64,000 nucleotides of DNA, from positions 32,800,001 to 32,864,000 of the forward strand of contig CM119372.1 in the NCBI GenBank assembly GCA_051294905.1, read 5' to 3'. The position numbers and the translations under genes were made by a program. The notes beneath the pieces are model-generated. The model was not told the DNA's origin and did no database searches. It was given only the letters and a program-made list of their open reading frames with translations. This document shows, in pieces, positions 652 to 53,000 of this stretch. Numbering within the stretch: position 1 is the first letter of the stretch; each line of letters begins with the position of its first letter. Source of the DNA: Botryllus schlosseri (lineage: Eukaryota).

Positions 652-3600
652 AGTTTCGTTTGATCCAACCGTCCGAATATCAATTCTACACTGTATCATT
701 GGTCAGAGCGTCATGACCATGGCCCTAACGTGCAGCAACCAAGCGATGGTGCAGCGAATCATGTCGTGTCGATCTCAAACGATAGCAAGAAGGTAAATGC
801 AATGGAGTGGCCGTATTCGTGCGCAAAATCGTAGGCATATAGTAAAGCACGGTGAAATACAAAGATCATACCACACAAGGCGCGAATAGCAAGAATGACA
901 CGTAAAAGGAGCGATTAATTTTAATATTGTAGTGATGACAACGTGGCATGCGTAACCAGAATGGCGTCAAAACAAGAATATGTACGACGGGAGAGAGTGA
1001 TCTTTGAATACCAGACCATATGCCACGGTCATCCACGTTTCTGTAGTAGCTTAGCGCAGTACAGCCATGCTCATATCAGTGTATTGATATAAAGCAGGTC
1101 ATGGCAAGTCAGGCGGGAGAGTTAGCCTAGTGCTGGTAGGTGGTAGGTGGGAAGCCCCTGTTCGACTCGTGACAGTAGCACAGTCCGCTCTGTTGAAGTT
1201 TCGGAAGTTGATGTGCATTCCTACTCTCCTATCTTGCTGTTCTTACCGCATCTTTACGACGAAGTCCAGAATAAGACCCGATTAAAGGCGAACACAAAGA
1301 AAGCGAATAAAAACGGAAAAGCGTCTTAAAGGCAGCCGAAGTTACACATTCGGCGTTAAGCGGAGATGGATGCTCGATAAAAAGATCTCACTTGTTCCAT
1401 ACAACTTTCTACTGTCTGTTCATTGCATCACATTGTGTCTTGTCTAGCGAATTGTACACTGTATGTCATAAGCGGACAAAAATAACATTACCCCCTCATT
1501 GTTGGATATCTCTCACTTCCTATTTGTATAAATGAGTATATCTCTCGTATCAGTATGAGACTGAAGTTACCTACTGCTAATGAATACACCCGAAGGCGGA
1601 ATCGGGTTGTGTTTTAGTGCACCACCCCAAGAAGGCACAAAAAGGTGGTACACCCCTAATATAGCCTATATATGTTCATAAAGTTTTATGTATGTTACAC
1701 GCATTTGCCCATTGAAATGGGCATGAAAGTGCAATTTGGTACCACAGAATGCCGATGACCTGATTAGCACCATCGTACACTATATGGTGGAAGTTTCGTA
1801 AAATCAGATATTAGAAAACATACATATACAATGTCGCCTTTTCGAAAATGATTTCGAAGTCCGTGAGCAAAAAAGACTTCAAACGCCGACCTACAGTGCG
1901 TTCGTTTGATTTCAGAGAATTCCGAGATGTGTAGCCTACATATTACGGTAAGATTCCCTCTACATTCCAGAGCCCTCTTCTTCTGCCTCGTTCCGGTATC
2001 AGTGATCTCCACGCTGGCTGTAGGCAACGGCTTGGTGATGTACGCCTACTACGAAAATTGCGATCCACTTCTGTCTCATATCATCAACAAGCCCGACCAG
2101 ATGATTCCGAAAATGATGACGAAAGCGTTTTTCGAAGTACCCGGTTTGGCTGGGATATTTGTCGCCGCAGCATGTAGCGGCACACTAAGGTACTGAGATA
2201 AAATGTCAACAATCAATTGTTATGATTTTGATTGCATTACATAATCTAAAATAGACTACGTATATTTACAGTAGCGATTGCTTGGATCGCTAAAAGGTTC
2301 TAAGACTTATGAACCTAATCTTTTACTCACTGGTTCCCAAACTATTCAGGCATGTGGCACAACAGAAATATCAAAAAACAATCGCAGCACAAGCAAATTG
2401 ATGTGGTAACTCACGTGGTAATGCGAGGGTCATGCTTATCCAGACCACGAGTGAAACGAGCTTACATTGCTGACAAACATGACCTTATTAGGCGAGAAGC
2501 GCTACTGTTGTTGTGTCAATAAAACAAACAAACAAACCCGCATTTCATCGTCAATTTCAAGCAGTGTCTCTCGTATCCAACAGCTTTTTTTACTTCAGTC
2601 AAAACAGCAAAAGCTATATTCGCATAGTCATAGGGATACGCAATGTGCATGGCATGAAATACTGGTTTCTTTTTTCACCCATGGTAAAGGATTATGAATC
2701 AGACCGCCATAACCATATTTGTGGAAACAGCGTTTCCGAAAACTGGGCGTTTTGTTTATCAGTGAGCTGTTATTCTGTAGAAAAATTGCTTGATTCACTG
2801 CTTCCAAATGTACTATATACCCATCTAACGTTGTGCAGAACAAATCGTGAGAAGTAATATTGGATTGTAAGTTGAAGTCCAGGCCGCTTGCCCACGTTTT
2901 GAGGAGTAACATTTTGTTTCATTTGGAGCGGAAAGCGAATTTAGGAATTCAGACTTCACACTTCCACACACCACAATCCAATTATGACGTGAAATTATCC
3001 AACTCATTGGCAATGTCATGATTGGTTTCATTGTAATGGTCACATGTGCCTGCTTATTTATCATCTATGAAGCAGTTAGAGCGCTTCAAGTCGCATATGC
3101 TACCATGCATGCGTCATTTTGAAAGCTGAAATTCGTTCATAAATTTCTTAAAGATTCAACGCACATCTAAGAATCTGTGGCGGTAAACTAATGCGTCGCG
3201 GCACACAATTTGGCAATCACCGATAACTAAATAATTTTTGCGAACACGAACGATGAATTGACTGTAATCTGTTACAATCTGCCAAATATGGATCTACTGT
3301 GACGAGAAGTAGCGTATTAAATATGTCCACATCCGCAACTCATTTCGTTTTATTCATACAAATCCATGTTGACATCGTATGACGACTCAAATGTATAAAA
3401 ATATCGAAGGAAAAAGCCAAATTCATCAAGATCTCCTCTACAAATACCTTGTATAAATCCAGTTTCGCAAATCCAACAAATACAAATTTAATTCATTTCT
3501 TACTAGAACCATCAAATGTTTGTTTTTTTAAATCCATTCACTCGCCCATATTCGACTCTATATAGCATGGGTGCGCACTGCGCATATTAGCGCCTCGCCG

Positions 3601-7748: not shown

Positions 7749-8206
7749 AAGCGAATATCGTGTATTCCCCGATTTGTACTATAGTGTATCTCAGTTTCAC
7801 ACACATTCCAATGAGTGATAATGAGTCAAATACACCATTTCTTAGTATGCCAGTGATATATTACAGAGGTTGAGAGGGTTATGTTTTCCAGTATATCACT
7901 TCCAGAACGCGTTAAAGGTGGTACACGTACAGATCTCCTACGCTTCCGGGATATATCTCCATAAGTAGTGGTGCATTTGATTCATGAGAAAGCAAGTTAG
8001 GGGCCGGAAAGTGCCGATTTCCTGATTTACACCCTGCGCTGTGGCCGTGGTCTGGTAAATTCACCTAATTCTCATCAGTCCGTTACGGCAGGGGCGGGCA
8101 ACATACGGCCCACGAAGGGATTTTGACCGGCCCGCAGAGAGTTTCTACCGTGAAAGGGAAATTCTAATCTGAAAGTACAGTTGAATAGTATATTCATATC
8201 GAAATG

Positions 8207-8241
8207 AACCCGAATATTTTCGGCTGACACTCGTCAGGGTT
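8207..8241 (-). ncRNA. Minimal type I hammerhead ribozyme motif (inverted pLTR copy)
   Basis: The minus strand reads aacc-CUGACGA-GugucagcC-GAA-AAUAUU-C-ggguu: intact core and palindromic stem III, but a weakened stem I. Confidence 0.6.
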
Positions 8242-8621
8242 AATCGTCAGCAACCATGGTGAAAAGCTCGCCCCTCACTCATCCGCTCAAGCTCGATGCT
8301 GAGCGATCAAAGGCCAGAAACTATGCCATTTGCAAACATTTGTTGGATAATCCCGCTTGTGCAAAAAATAATCAAGACGACAAATGTTGGCGTCATCGGA
8401 AGGGACCGCTCACACTATCATCTGCGTGCCTTGGAGTGGACCTTTATCAAAATACACCAGCTCAAGCTTTGTCTAGAAAAAGGAGTTCGTGTACCTTCTT
8501 AAAATAGTACATTGAACGCTCTCTTATTTGAGATTACATTCCAAGCCGGTGACGTCATATTTTGTGATACGATTGTTGATATACAATGTTCTTTCCAATT
8601 CTCTACTGGTTGCTGACGATT

Positions 8622-8655
8622 CCCCCTGACAAGTGTCAGCCGAAAATATTCGGGT
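8622..8655 (+). ncRNA. Minimal type I hammerhead ribozyme motif (core mutated)
   Basis: cccc-CUGACAA-GugucagcC-GAA-AAUAUU-C-gggu. G8 is changed to A relative to the inverted copy. Confidence 0.5.
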
Positions 8656-9649
8656 ACATTTTAATATGAATATGGTATTCAATTGTATATTGAAGTTCTG
8701 TACCCCCAAGAAGCTCGTTAATCTAAAAGTATCGACAAATTTTATGCGTCACAAAATGAATCCAAGTGTGCCAACCTGGGCAAGATGGACATGAAACTAC
8801 TTGCTCTGATCGGATGTACAATGTACATGTAGGCTACATATATTTTCGACCGTGAACATTAACGAGACAAGGCTACGTTCCAATATAACTGATGTTCACG
8901 TGCAGTCTTTACTAAGGGTTTCTACATACAACATGCAGCCAGCGTCCAAAGAACTTGTTGACAACTCTGACCCGCCACGGATGTCCGATTGACCTCAACA
9001 GCTACTGTTAATAAATTCATTGAACAGGCCACTGTTTTGGTGTCTATGCTTTAAACTTAATGTTCACATTAAATACGATTTATTCCTTATGTAGGTGGAT
9101 AAATGCGATTAATGTATATATTCTGTAATCCGGCCCGCCAAGTGCTTCATTTTCCCATATCCGGCCCGCCGACCGGAGAAGATGCCCGCCCCTGCGTTAC
9201 GGTATAGCGCAACGTGCCATTTCTGTTATTTGAAGTCGTTCCACCTGGAAAATAGAAAGATAAAGGAGTGAGGATGGGTAAGGAGGGTCTTCAGAAACCG
9301 GTGGAAAGCTATTAATTTTTTTATTTTCGTAAGTTATAGACTTGCGAGATACGTTCGTTGGAAGCGGTCACTGGAGGGAATAACTATTTCTATACAGTCC
9401 TTCCGCTGGTTAGAGGTGGAAGTCGGGTATACGGTACTCGGGTTTGGCTCGGTTTTGGAAACGAATTCGCGATTGAATAGGTTCGGATGACCATTCCATC
9501 AATCAACAATGTGATATTTTCATTGGTTTCCGGAATCAAAACAGGCTCTAATTATACGATACAATCGACCTTCGGGCAAGGACCCAATGCGCAGTCCCGT
9601 TTCGATCTCTGATTTGGCTACCCTTCAGATTACCTGATAAAAATGCGTG

Positions 9650-14790: not shown

Positions 14791-40704
<25,914 letters not shown>

Positions 40705-46115: not shown

Positions 46116-47084
46116 CTGACGACTCATTGCCTATAGTCACCCTTCAACGTCACGAATCAATACAAATAAATTTTGGTATCTCACTACTCCTAGATAATAA
46201 ATAGATAGCCTATATGCAAATAAAACAGCAATAACTCGACCCCATTGTCTCAGCGTATTTAATAGTTAAAGATACGCTAATGACGAACCACAATGCAATT
46301 CGCTAAAACATTTTGCGCAGTGATACAAACCCGCAAACATATTCATAATCAGGTGTCGAGGGGCAGCCAATTTTCATTCTGATTCTTCCGAGTACCCAAA
46401 ATACCTCATTTGGTATTGAAGGGCATGCCCGAAACAGGATTTCGGATTCGCCACATGACCGACTGCCGCCGAGGGGCACCGCTGGCGAATAGAGCAGTAG
46501 TATATTATGTGTATCAACCCCGATGGGTTGCAGGTTCCTGTACAGCCGACGTCCACTCCAGAATACTTGACCTCATGTATGTGGTAAATCCAGACTCCTC
46601 ATCGCCACCCGACACCTTGATTCATTGCGTTATAGTAAGATTCAAGAAATCGGGGAAGCAGAAGAGGGTGGATGGATCTTCAATGACCTCCTCGACTAGA
46701 AGCATAAATAGTAATAGGAATATAGTTCAATTATAAAATCGAATTTCCCTTCCCTCCCTACATATCATTGATGAAACATGAAATAAGTGTGTGCATGTGC
46801 TTGGTTTATGGCAGTGTTGGGATCAATTCATTACACCCGAGTCACGCGTTAAGCAAGGTCAATTCAGAATTTTTGAAATCAAGTCTCGTCACGAGATCAG
46901 CCGTTCAAATTTGCAAAGAGGCAAAAAGTCACAGCATCCCAACTTTTCCGAGTTGAAGTCTCTTTCAAGTCACCAAATAATCCAAGTTTTACTATGTGGC
47001 TGGCCAGATGCAGGTACACATGCAGAACTAATAAGACGACAGGAGTTGCTAGTTATTTATGTAAGTTGCTAAGAATATTTATTC

Positions 47085-47120
47085 CGCAGGAAGCTTTTCG
47101 ACTGGCTCTCTTCAGCAGTG
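47085..47120 (-). ncRNA. Minimal type I hammerhead ribozyme motif (inverted copy)
   Basis: The minus strand reads cacug-CUGAAGA-GagccaguC-GAA-AAGCUU-C-cugcg: perfect palindromic stem III, mismatched stem I. Confidence 0.62.
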
Positions 47121-47253
47121 AACGCCAGTAAATGAGGTTAACCAAGTTCGAAATATAGAAAGAATATTGTGATATGTGTACTTGTCATTATTGCGTCACA
47201 ACGACAATATTTTTTCTATATTTCGAACTTGGTTAACCTCATTTACTGGCATT

Positions 47254-47289
47254 CACTGCTGAAGAGAGCCAGTCGAAAAGCATCCAGTG
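47254..47289 (+). ncRNA. Minimal type I hammerhead ribozyme motif
   Basis: cacug-CUGAAGA-GagccaguC-GAA-AAGCAU-C-cagug: complete conserved core and a perfect 5-bp stem I. Predicted cleavage after C47284. Confidence 0.75.
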
Positions 47290-47453
47290 GAATGAATATG
47301 ACAATATGAACGTATTGTTTACTGCAATATTGAAGTTCTGTACTTCGAAAAGCCTATTTGCTGAGAATATTGCTCACATGCTGAACACTGTAGGGGTATA
47401 TTTCAATGTTAGCGAAGTTATTTGACTGAAAGTCTGCGTTAAGGCAGTGCGGG

Positions 47454-48008
47454 TAGGGTTGCATTCAAAACAAATGGTTGTTTAAAACACTTTGTTTAAA
47501 ACATGTTTCACATAGCATTTTAAGCAAGGACCCTTTTTTAAAATTGTGTTTTTATAAAGTTGTATAATTATGCCATAATTGTGTAAATACTTTTCAAAAA
47601 CATGTTATATCAGCCTACGGACGACGATTACCACTCGATATAGCCGTCGTATGCGATATGGAATGGTTGCAACCCCCGAAACAGTCGGTTCAACAGTTAT
47701 AGTACGTAGTTATCAATCATTGGTACGAAATGAATGTTCTGATGATGATGACCACCGACCAGAAAAATGCTGCAAGACAATGCAGCCCTGGTTAAAGATA
47801 TTTTAGTCCGTATATGACAGGGTTTGGAAGCCTATTTCGTCACAGGAGCTATATTTACCCCATATTTCAATTGTGAATATCAATCTACTATGACGTCACA
47901 ATTGAATATGTGTGACGTCATGGCTTAGACAAAAAAACATATTTTAAACAAGGGCCTTATTTTAAACATGTTTGTTTTAAATTGATTTTTGTTTAAAACG
48001 CAGCCCTA
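47454..48008. mobile_element. MITE, same family as 139-585, most complete copy
   Basis: TAGGGTTGCATTCAAAACA / AAAACGCAGCCCTA. Flanks AGTGCGGG/AGTACGAG (6/8). Confidence 0.8.
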
Positions 48009-50098: not shown

Positions 50099-53000
50099 AT
50101 GGCTTACGACAGTTTCGACGAAAATGGCCAAAAGCTGGGAGGCAAAGGATATTTCTTTACCAAAACAACGATTGCCATCGTATCCTTTCTAGTCGTCGCA
50201 TTACTTATCGCTGAAGGTAAGGGCAAAATTCATTGATACATCGCATGATATAGAAATACGTCTACTTTGTCAACCAAAACAGTCAACCAAAATATAACAT
50301 ATACATGAGTAGCCTACCTCCAAAAAGTCGAAATAATTCTTTACTGATCACTAGTAAAGTTTTTGTAGCACTAAAAACCTGAGAAAGTTGCATTTTTTTA
50401 AAAATTTTATCAAAAGTTGCAGAAGTTGCATTTATACAATTTTTTGAAATCATGAGGGTATGAGATACTCGAAAGGTTCCAGCAGTTTAAAATTTGCATG
50501 GTGTCTGCTTGTTCCGTTTCTTCCTTCGCTATTCAATCGATCATGGTTACATTTCTATTTACATAGGGTTTGAAACCTACATGAAAGCAGCAAGAAAATA
50601 TCGAAAATAATAAGCGATATTCCCCCCAAATCAAATATCACACCCAAACCACCTCCCTAGGTCTGCAAACATGATCCAAGGCTTCCTGGAAAAGGTGACC
50701 CAGTGAAAATATCATTTTCGATCGCATCGATTGGGCGTCCGAGAAATAGGAAGAGACGTCAAATTTGAACGACAGTGAATTAATCAAGCGATCTATTTAT
50801 ATATAGTGCCAAATATTTCCAGACATTGTCGGGGGAGAAATGACGATCGTTTGCCAACAGTTTGTGTGGCATGCTGAAACTTCGTTCCACAGAGCATGAA
50901 GCTGCTTGGCAATTTAACAATTTGGCATACAGTTCTGGACTGGTGTTTGGTTGGGTCATTTCCACAATTGCTTTCAGGTGCCTGTTCAGTTCAAATCGAT
51001 GATCCAAATACAATTTTATTCTTGATGGATCACTGCTAAAGTCAAATGTGTAACCTCTTTCATAGGCTTGAGCAATGCTACATTCTGTGCTCTCTGCTCT
51101 TTTTATTTCATCAACAAGTTGAATATAACATTGACAAATTTCCCTTAGGCTTCTAGGAAGGCTTTCAGCCGTGACTGCTTTCTTCGCTTTCATCACTAAC
51201 AGCCCCGTGCCTTCAAAAGCATTAACAATCTCAAGAACTTGCGGAAGGTTTTTGGCATAGTATTTTGTTGCCTTCAACCAACTTCCCCATCTGGTGACCA
51301 CAGGTTGTGGGGGACTATTGATTGCTGAAAACTTGGCTCTTCGATCATTATTTTTCACCACTGAAGCTTTTACTGCTGCAATTAGGTTATCAACATCCTC
51401 ACAATTATTCCGGATTCGTTGCGCTACATTGTGTAACGCATGAGCTACATAGGTGATGTGAAACACCCTCGGAAATGTTCCTTTAACAACACGACCTGTT
51501 GCTGTCATGTACCTTGCAGCATCTGTGATCAACAGGATAAAATTATCTCTGTCTGTTCGTAGTGTACGTATTGCATCGTCTGCTGCATGTACAATGGTTT
51601 GCTGATTTGGTGATGCGCCAAGAATCTTACAATGCAAAAGATAACTAGTTTGTGGATATTCTATATCTCCGACTAGAGTGTTTAAATATTTGAATCCTGA
51701 AATATCAGATTCCTCAATGACCATGAAAATGAGCTTATCTGATAGAATATTGCAGATTCGATCAACTTCATGTTTACCCATGGTATCAATTCGCTTTCGG
51801 CGTGCTGACTCAGACGGAGATTTTCGTCCAACAAATTTAAATAGAGCCTGTAGGTCAGGATTGTTAAGTTTGTAGAGGGGAATATCTGCTGAAAGGAAAG
51901 CAGCTGTCGCTTTGCCAACATAATCATTCCATTGGAAACTCGTTGCTGGTAGCGGTTGCTGCCGTTGTTGCGATGTTGATGACAGAGCCTTGAGATGCTT
52001 TCTACTCTGACGATGTTTGTCCAGTAGTCCACTGAAAATTTCCTGTCGTGCGAGACAATTGTGGAGCACTGTGTGCAAAATAGTTCTCCGCGGGCACTGA
52101 CCATGAGTTCCGCATCGTAGCGTGCAACGTAGGCTTGCGCCTTGGAAAGTGACGATTTTGTTTCTTTTGGCAATCTTGTATAAATGTTAATAATTTCTAT
52201 TGTATGATATTGAGATAATACAATTTTTTTGAACAGTATCTAAAATTCATAGTTATTCTTTGTAAGTTACCGACGACTCGCAGAGTAACTTCACGGAAAA
52301 GGTATCGGTAGCCCAAGACTCACGTAGACAATAAGGAGATTTCAATCACTCCGTCCCTGGAACAAGCTATACGCATCTTCGGCGACGGCTAGCTATCGTC
52401 ACAAACTAAAGTTACAATAACTATTTACACAAATGCCCAAGTATGATAACTGGAATCGGTTGAGTAGAGTGACACCAATTTCAGATGCGTCAAAACTTTT
52501 GATATCTCTAGCCTGCAACACATCTTCTGATCGCAAACCAAAATCAATAACGCCGCTTGAGTCTGTTCGCAACCAGTATGCTGTATGTATTTTAATCAAC
52601 TTCGTCCGCGTCCTCAGTCTTGATCCAGTATGACATCACAATCGCAGTAGACGTAATGGTTCCGGCCGGCGAGTCGGATATCATATTTCTACAGAGCAGG
52701 AGAGGGCAATTACAACATTTCGCGGGTGTAGAAATCAACATCTTTGGTATCGAGCTCCCGGTCTTGTCGTGTCGCGTCGCGTTTTCTAATTACTCACGTT
52801 TCATCAATGTGTTGATAATTTGCTCACGTAAGCAGTAGCACGTCAACAAAATACTTTGCTTATTTCCGAATCTCACAATTTACCAGTTAGTTCAGGGAGT
52901 TTCACGACTAACGGAATAGTGGGTATGCCGCATACCCGAAAAAATTGCTAGGTAAACACGGCATACCCAGTATACCTGCGTCCGGCGCCTATGGTGGGCC

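What the first reader, a model, noticed from the sequence alone, without database searches (positions are those of the whole stretch)
47080..47357. 278-bp non-coding fold-back retro-insertion carrying an inverted pair of minimal hammerhead ribozymes
Seen: ~90-bp inverted arms, a 14-bp TSD with one mismatch, no ORF, and a hammerhead core in each arm. The + copy is cacug-CUGAAGA-G(agccagu)C-GAA-AAGCAU-C-cagug with perfect stem I. The - copy has the palindromic stem III AAGCUU but a damaged stem I, so the two copies together reconstruct an intact ancestral ribozyme. Established: Penelope-like elements carry minimal type I hammerheads with palindromic stem III in their pseudo-LTRs, thought to cleave efficiently as dimers, and they often insert as 5'-truncated inverted structures. 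Inference: this is either a pLTR-only Penelope insertion or a member of a non-autonomous, retrozyme-like family. It lies ~2.7 kb upstream of the aminopeptidase B ATG, where a read-through or outron transcript could self-cleave or fold into a long dsRNA hairpin.
Basis: partly seen in the sequence, partly recalled or inferred. Interest (0 to 1): 0.75.

Follow-up and report, generated by a model that had tools for sequence, protein, structure and literature searches.

The report
Truncated Penelope end with knotted hammerhead
The 278-base hairpin is most likely a dead, truncated end piece of an abundant Penelope-like jumping gene, inserted in the head-to-head pattern typical of that class; the one unusual point is that its small hammerhead ribozyme motif seems to replace its second stem with a six-base-pair knot.

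Summary
Observation confirmed: 96-nt inverted arms, 14-bp TSD (13/14), a hammerhead core in each arm. Laid runs show a highly repeated, dispersed family ending at 47356-59 and continuing 5' of this copy; T is the majority letter at 47282, so the proposed ancestral ribozyme is right. A sibling insertion at 8178-8718 has the same layout and a homologous tail; both tails open a 17-codon frame with a coding signature. Best reading: a dead, 5'-truncated Penelope-like insertion (pLTR end, one-sided tail, inverted copy), a layout already in print, including opposite-strand hammerhead pairs. No RT or endonuclease was verified. The locus should not self-cleave: the hairpin buries the core (about 50 kcal/mol) and opposite-strand copies cannot dimerise in cis. 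None of 56 plus 34 published PLE-survey rows has this form, but Lunse 2017 was unreadable. The scan reported such fold-back PLE stumps in other genomes and a knotted PLE hammerhead in this genome.

The parts
47066..47079 (+). Left target-site duplication (14 bp, 79% A+T); its last 5 nt also match the family sequence at 47295-47299 (microhomology)
47075..47170 (-). Inverted, tail-less, 5'-truncated copy of the pLTR end
47085..47129 (-). Hammerhead motif, minus copy: core, pseudoknot and palindromic helix III intact; stem I broken at 47088 and 47086
47171..47174 (.). Inversion junction; 2-4 nt fit neither arm
   Evidence: family match begins at 47173 or 47175 in other copies (loose ends)
47175..47299 (+). 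5'-truncated pLTR end, sense copy
   Evidence: repeat depth, shared upstream loose ends
47245..47289 (+). Hammerhead motif, plus copy: pseudoknot 47245-50 with 47268-73; stem I 47254-58 with 47285-89; core 47259-65 and 47275-78; one-pair helix II G47266-C47274; helix III 47278-83 with non-majority A47282; predicted cut after C47284
47300..47357 (+). One-sided tail (58 nt); family 3' end heaps at 47356-47359
47306..47356 (+). ATG and 17 open codons, read as the start of the element's ORF
   Evidence: 11 of 17 residues identical to the sibling, 10 of 17 base changes at third positions
47358..47371 (+). Right target-site duplication
8178..8718 (+). Sibling insertion of a related family, used as internal comparison: TSD 8165-77 / 8719-31 (12 of 13), arms 8176-8256 / 8607-8687, two hammerhead copies, 31-nt tail, frameshifted coding remnant about 8313-8513

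Best explanation
A dead-on-arrival insertion of the 3' end of an abundant, endonuclease-bearing Penelope-like element (PLE). Shown: TSD, head-to-head arms, one-sided tail, repeat status, fixed family 3' end, 5' truncation, a hammerhead under structural selection in the family, a coding signature in the tail. Inferred: the element's GIY-YIG nuclease cut an AT-rich target; reverse transcription started at the family's internal start (tail end, 47357), ran about 185 nt and stopped near 47173-75; a second, shorter copy starting at 47299 was laid head-to-head, either primed from the other nicked strand through the 5-nt microhomology or made by fold-back of the first cDNA; repair left the 14-bp TSD. 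Each arm then decayed by point changes. In the parent element the ribozyme, 22 nt upstream of the ATG, most likely folds as a type I hammerhead in which a 6-bp pseudoknot stands in for helix II and helix III forms between two RNA copies, and trims the element's RNA. At this locus it is buried in a 96-bp hairpin and has no catalytic role.
For: Layout matches published PLE insertions: inverted 5'-truncated copy, tail at one end, 8-10 bp TSDs, tail carrying the first codons of the ORF (PMC3846280; PMC8557442); opposite-strand min-HHR pairs 100-700 bp apart (PMC4209133; here 144 bp). Summed depth in X2 39,600-89,500 over 47202-47341 against 18-36 at 47392-47453; 92 contig ends at 47356-59 with mixed flanks (agreement 0.40-0.45); 32 X2 and 13 X16 contigs continue 5' of 47175 with shared non-palindromic sequence. 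Sibling at 8178-8718 with the same layout; its tail scores 53-54 against a maximum of 49 among 25,129 other window segments. Tail frame: 5 synonymous codon changes against 0 and 0 in the other two frames; 676 of 200,000 random placements keep 11 or more residues, 4150 give 5 or more synonymous codons. Between the two families stem I has 3 of 5 and the pseudoknot 2 of 6 pairs changed on both sides. Both arms share the minority T at 47208 (5% in X2), as expected from one source copy. Both-strand nicking and two RT start sites bounding the tail were shown for an anole PLE (PMC11167929).
Against: No RT or endonuclease was verified for either family: the sibling's coding remnant gave no Pfam match and no homologue, so its GIY-YIG reading rests on recall. 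No genome is held, so no master element was seen. The tail is 58 nt, longer than the 30-40 nt in print. No empty allele was seen; depth was near zero at 47362-47391 in all four runs. The covariation counts rest on two families (effective n = 2); 69 of 500 shuffles reached 5 pairs with a change on both sides. A fold-back primer at the junction is not the predicted minimum-energy DNA fold. About 15% of X5 depth at 47282 is not T, so A47282 may not be unique to this locus.
Confidence: 0.8

Rival explanations
1. The parent is a longer non-autonomous PLE derivative (retrozyme-like or MRC1-like) moved in trans by an autonomous PLE, and this locus is a truncated, inverted copy of it. The insertion mechanism is the same; the parent differs.
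For: No coding body was seen for this family. The family is very abundant. Animal non-LTR retrozymes derive from PLE pLTRs (bioRxiv 10.64898/2026.07.22.740005). The tail is shared with the sibling family across the genome: loose ends before 47302 in 15 X2 contigs and 7 X23 reads, the X23 consensus resembling the sibling's ribozyme end.
Against: The tail's frame shows coding constraint between the families. No head-to-tail joint is listed, although a unit longer than the 282 nt laid would not show one. Described animal retrozymes are tandem repeats with canonical type I hammerheads (PMC7229834).
Confidence: 0.13
2. The 278-bp fold-back is itself the replicating unit: a hairpin mini-element with a fixed centre.
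For: Both arms share a minority letter (47208). 92 X2 contigs run over an end of the laid stretch and were not resolved.
Against: No joint between 47172-75 and 47204 is listed; the three opposite-strand joints in X2 are single contigs at other places; the best-supported 5' continuation is non-palindromic. The sibling has a different centre. The hairpin blocks the ribozyme. The test is weak: contigs break at palindromes and the junction lies at the edge of the laid stretch.
Confidence: 0.04
3. The insertion has been co-opted to regulate the downstream aminopeptidase, by cleavage of an upstream transcript or as a source of hairpin small RNAs.
For: It lies between two tandem M1 aminopeptidase genes, 6.4 kb after the first stop and 2.7 kb before the next ATG. 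Any read-through RNA would form a 96-bp duplex. RNA-guess run X5 holds 31% of the sampled words of the intergenic stretch.
Against: Both ribozyme copies carry a disabling change and are buried. The arms have drifted apart (6 of 96) about as much as the TSDs (1 of 14). In X23, 0 of 60 laid reads lie on the unique flank, all 27 reads at 47282 carry the family T, and no pile of ends appears at the cut site (6% of one run).
Confidence: 0.03

Closest known systems
Canonical EN+ Penelope-like element insertion units (pLTR, adjacent inverted 5'-truncated copy, one-sided tail; Arkhipova et al. 2013 PMC3846280, Craig et al. 2021 PMC8557442)
   Same: Head-to-head inverted copy lacking the tail, TSD in AT-rich DNA, tail holding the first ORF codons, hammerhead in the pLTR, heavy 5' truncation.
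   Different: Only about 185 nt of the element remain; tail 58 nt against 30-40; TSD 14 bp against 8-10 in the rotifer examples; clade not assigned; RT and EN not seen.
Minimal type I hammerheads of metazoan PLEs (Cervera and De la Pena 2014, PMC4209133)
   Same: CUGANGA and GAAA core, G10.1-C11.1 pair, 5-bp helix I, palindromic helix III, opposite-strand pairs 100-700 bp apart.
   Different: All 56 rows of their Fig. S3 and all 34 rows of the Craig 2021 table have a helix II of 3 or more pairs; here helix II is one pair with no bulged base, and its loop pairs with a 5' leader. Two reviews say PLE minimal hammerheads usually lack tertiary contacts.
Pseudoknot (PK, RAGATH-1) hammerhead, Rfam RF03152 (Zhan et al. 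2024, PMC11300833), and the one-pair stem II type II hammerhead of Perreault et al. 2011 (PMC3088659)
   Same: One-pair helix II with a 7-nt loop, 6-bp pseudoknot in place of helix II, 3 nt before a 5-bp helix I.
   Different: No helix IV: the pseudoknot strand leads by 3 nt straight into helix I. Helix III is a bare palindrome, not a stable stem. Score is far below the Rfam cut-off. It sits in an animal retrotransposon.
Animal non-LTR retrozymes (Cervera and De la Pena 2020, PMC7229834)
   Same: Short, low-GC, non-coding, type I hammerhead, long TSD, PLE-related.

Membership tests
EN+ Penelope-like element insertion | Inverted 5'-truncated copy adjacent to the 5' end, head-to-head | tested here: met
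EN+ Penelope-like element insertion | Tail on one side only (30-40 nt in print) | tested here: met
   One-sided tail present but 58 nt; the sibling's is 31 nt
EN+ Penelope-like element insertion | Target-site duplication at an AT-rich site | tested here: met
   13 of 14, 79% A+T; empty site not seen
EN+ Penelope-like element insertion | Hammerhead in the pLTR close to the ORF start | tested here: met
EN+ Penelope-like element insertion | Dispersed repeat with fixed 3' end and 5' truncation | tested here: met
   summed depth is no copy number
EN+ Penelope-like element insertion | Parent encodes PLE-clade RT and GIY-YIG endonuclease | tested here: inconclusive
   Tail frame looks coding; sibling remnant unmatched; no genome held
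PLE minimal hammerhead (Cervera 2014 consensus) | Conserved core, G10.1-C11.1, palindromic helix III | tested here: met
PLE minimal hammerhead (Cervera 2014 consensus) | Long helix II with an unpaired base at its 5' foot | tested here: not met
   One pair plus pseudoknot against the consensus
PLE minimal hammerhead (Cervera 2014 consensus) | Self-cleavage as a dimer | not testable with these tools
   No end pile at 47284 among 60 reads is too thin to count
PK hammerhead RF03152 | One-pair helix II, 7-nt loop, 6-bp pseudoknot | tested here: met
PK hammerhead RF03152 | Helix IV stem-loop presenting the pseudoknot strand; Rfam gathering score | tested here: not met
   Only 3 nt between the pseudoknot strand and helix I; 14-17.6 bits against 56.3
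Animal non-LTR retrozyme | Head-to-tail tandem units, each with a same-strand hammerhead | tested here: not met
   Single head-to-head pair; no further copy in the window
Animal non-LTR retrozyme | Circular RNA intermediate | not testable with these tools
   No suitable reads

The most novel reading that the evidence does not exclude
A group of abundant animal PLE families carries an undescribed hammerhead form: a type I ribozyme whose helix II is replaced by a 6-bp pseudoknot with a 5' leader (a PK hammerhead without helix IV) and whose helix III needs a second RNA copy. Helix-II-based descriptors would miss it, so it could be common and could account for PLEs reported to have a hammerhead core but no fitting stems. 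It may cut much faster than the sluggish PLE minimal hammerheads tested so far, giving a tractable handle on what the ribozyme does 22 nt upstream of the PLE start codon.
Probability: 0.3. Interest if true: 0.55.

Novelty: new variant of a known kind. Interest (0 to 1): 0.3.

Why it matters
The locus itself is ordinary retrotransposon debris. If the pseudoknotted form is active and unpublished, it adds a structural class to PLE ribozymes, explains misses by standard descriptors (Rfam scored it below cut-off), and offers a direct test of the open question of why PLE hammerheads look conserved yet cut poorly in vitro: constructs trimmed 5' of helix I would lose the pseudoknot.

Tried and rejected
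No own genome for a copy search. Pattern scans found nothing: metagenome contigs twice, viral contigs once. Scan look-ups by sequence found no look-alikes and none nearby. Rfam microRNA matches on the hairpin are below cut-off and reflect any long stem. A covariance model from the four window copies found no fifth copy; its next hits had E 1.3 or more. The sibling's coding remnant was not identified; that question stays open. Short family motifs were absent from the Craig 2021 supplement and the one readable Cervera 2014 supplement (its file 1 was not searchable); two 10-nt core motifs hit once each in the Craig consensus files, outside any hammerhead context. No listed holder run is on record as RNA; this says nothing on expression. 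The aminopeptidase exon search returned one unnamed protein, so the host taxon and the outron idea were not assessed. Twin priming on a single pLTR was rejected because the arms duplicate the same bases. A DNA MITE was rejected because the inverted repeat is not terminal at the 3' side and the tail is one-sided. A DIRS-type element was rejected because a TSD is present (PMC8969392). Lunse et al. 2017 and Arkhipova et al. 2017 were not held.

Full report
1. Observation. The structure is there. The arms are 47075-47170 and 47204-47299, 96 nt, 94% complementary, with six differences. The RNA folds to -165.4 kcal/mol, and 0 of 200 shuffles match that. The 14-bp direct repeat (13 of 14) sits at both borders; 0 of 3000 random boundary pairs reached 14 and 1 reached 13. 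The longest Met-started frame is 20 codons. Rfam scores it below cut-off. A strict descriptor, written after seeing the motif, hit 1 time in the window and 0 times in 200 shuffles. The downstream gene is the second of two tandem M1 aminopeptidases. The element is 6.4 kb after the first gene's stop and 2742 nt before the second ATG; untranslated exons are unknown.

2. It is one copy of an abundant family. I laid 4 of the 24 listed runs on 47172-47453, which holds the plus arm, tail and right flank. In DNA run X2, 2262 contigs were laid. Summed depth is 39,600-89,500 over 47202-47341 and 18-36 at 47392-47453, a ratio of about 1,300-3,600 over the ribozyme; the tool warns that this is no copy number. 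Ends heap at 47356-47359 (92 contigs) with mixed AT-rich flanks, which confirms the 3' border set by the TSD. On the 5' side, 32 X2 and 13 X16 contigs continue past 47175 with shared sequence that is not the inverted arm, so this copy is truncated. The family also occurs in a second organism (X16). X2 may be the sample behind the assembly; X16, X5 and X23 are other samples. No empty allele was seen, and 47362-47391 had almost no depth in any run.

3. The ancestral ribozyme. T is the majority letter at 47282 (99.3% X2, 100% X16, 27 of 27 reads X23, but only 85% X5). At the four arm differences 47212, 47251, 47282 and 47294 the minus arm has the majority letter; at 47286 and 47288 the plus arm has it. 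Both arms share a minority T at 47208, which points to one source copy, or to later conversion within the hairpin.

4. A sibling in the same window. A 17-nt exact match led to 8178-8718: a 13-bp TSD (12 of 13), 81-nt inverted arms, a hammerhead in each arm, a 31-nt one-sided tail, and a frameshifted coding remnant. The remnant looks to me like the C-terminus of a PLE GIY-YIG domain; this is recalled, and Pfam, a homologue search and a supplement search did not confirm it. The two tails are homologous to their last bases. Both begin a 17-codon open frame at an ATG (47306, 8666): 11 of 17 residues are identical, 10 of 17 base changes fall on third positions, and 5 codons change synonymously against 0 in each other frame; 676 and 4150 of 200,000 random placements do as well on the two measures. 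In rotifer PLEs the pLTR plus tail holds the first 12-22 codons of the ORF (PMC3846280). This is the best evidence that the parent is a coding element.

5. Helix II is a single G47266-C47274 pair with a 7-nt loop. Six loop bases (47268-73) are exactly complementary to 47245-50, three bases 5' of helix I; chance at that register is about 0.0003, and 0.7-1.0% anywhere in 40 nt. All four window copies keep all six pairs, two of them changed on both sides between the families; helix I has three such pairs. Helix III is a perfect 6-nt palindrome of different sequence in each family. The covariation score exceeded all 500 shuffles and all slid controls, but there are only two independent families, and 69 of 500 shuffles matched the count of pairs changed on both sides. 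In the laid runs, ten minority variants are listed within 47245-47289, leaving out this copy's own two letters. Four form two complementary pairs with close depths (47249/47269: 580 and 660; 47258/47285: 3975 and 3963 in X2), two give G-U pairs, three are unpaired or free positions, and one hits the core (47264, 0.3% in X2). Linkage on one molecule is not shown, and some of these letters may come from sibling-like families. I saw an earlier scan note on a 'knotted second stem' in this genome before I noticed the pairing in the fold.

6. How it works. Inferred: target-primed reverse transcription by a PLE enzyme. An anole PLE protein nicks and extends both strands, prefers AT-rich targets, and starts at two internal RNA sites that bound the tail (PMC11167929). 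That fits a long copy from 47357 and a short opposite copy from 47299, the latter with 5 nt of microhomology to the target, joined at the centre. Fold-back self-priming, proposed for PLE palindromes (PMC3846280), is the alternative; a weak 6-bp stem exists at the junction but is not the minimum-energy DNA fold. I cannot separate the two. At this locus the ribozyme should be silent: stem I probability is 0.0 in the whole element on both strands, forcing the core costs 50 kcal/mol (nested model, no pseudoknot), each strand has one sense ribozyme preceded by its antisense, and each copy has a disabling change. Family RNA is present at a low level on both strands in X23 (60 reads in 12.9 million records), none on this locus's flank, with no pile of ends.

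7. Comparison. The layout is the standard PLE one (PMC8557442). Opposite-strand hammerhead pairs 100-700 bp apart and an inverted second ribozyme at a truncated 5' end are in print (PMC4209133), as is a Repbase entry with a hammerhead on each strand. It works like a truncated EN+ PLE insertion; membership lacks only the RT/EN test, which was inconclusive. It is not a retrozyme by the tandem criterion. The ribozyme fails the 2014 consensus on helix II: 0 of 56 rows in that paper's Fig. S3 and 0 of 34 rows in the Craig table have a one-pair helix II. One-pair helix II with a 6-bp pseudoknot is known and active in a metagenomic type II hammerhead (PMC3088659) and in the PK hammerhead (PMC11300833), which has an extra helix IV absent here. 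Searches pairing hammerhead, pseudoknot and Penelope or retrotransposon terms listed no paper on this form in PLEs, judged from listings and the passages read. The library lacks Lunse et al. 2017, the largest survey of PLE hammerhead variants, so novelty of the fold is unproven.

8. What I saw of each paper. PMC4209133: parts 1-2 of 4 and supplement file 2, parts 1-2 of 3. PMC11167929: parts 1-2 of 4. PMC3846280: parts 1-4 of 5. PMC8557442: passages, supplement parts 1-2 of 59, and text searches. bioRxiv 2026.07.22.740005: part 1 of 5 and passages; its supplements are closed. PMC11300833: part 1 of 6. Passages only: PMC8969392, PMC6765202, PMC10085705, PMC6155905, PMC3088659, PMC7229834, PMC7761336. 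Not seen: Lunse 2017, Arkhipova 2017.

9. Verdict. The locus is ordinary PLE debris (confidence 0.8), and the scan has reported the same stumps in other genomes. The pseudoknotted ribozyme is a real structural variant against what I could read, untested for activity. Interest 0.3; new variant of a known kind.

Noticed in passing
window 8165-8731: Second TSD-flanked, head-to-head PLE-type insertion with two pseudoknotted hammerhead copies and a frameshifted coding remnant; an 8-nt palindrome lies at its inversion junction (8251-8258).
   Followed up: yes
window 47267 (run X23): Five family reads end in poly(A) right after 47267, inside loop II and 17 nt before the predicted cut; may be a real 3' end or a priming artefact.
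   Followed up: no
window 47359 (runs X2 and X16): Loose-end consensus behind the tail shows the same short motif at the same offset in two organisms (agreement 0.40 and 0.52), hinting that some copies run on into a shared element body.
   Followed up: no
window 47282 and 47251 (run X5): About 15% and 10% of depth lack the family letter, although the run has no depth on the right flank; this copy's letters may be shared with other copies.
   Followed up: partly
window 47454-48008: About 550-bp repeat with imperfect terminal inverted repeats (MITE-like), 96 nt from the element; related copies at 140-578 and 24757-25195.
   Followed up: no
window 50780-52186 (-): 468-codon frame with DUF659 and a weak hAT dimerisation match, inside the first intron region of the second aminopeptidase.
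   Followed up: partly
window about 14800-40704 and 50099 onward: Two tandem M1 aminopeptidase paralogues with matching exons.
   Followed up: partly
window 31279-31317: 80% match over 40 nt to 47185-47224 (E 0.001); no hammerhead follows. Possibly a decayed pLTR scrap.
   Followed up: partly
PMC8557442 supplement: About ten PLE families, nearly all Naiads, are marked as having a hammerhead core with a 7-17 nt spacer that fits no stem descriptor; the spacer here is 9 nt. They could be pseudoknotted forms; only two short motif searches were made.
   Followed up: partly
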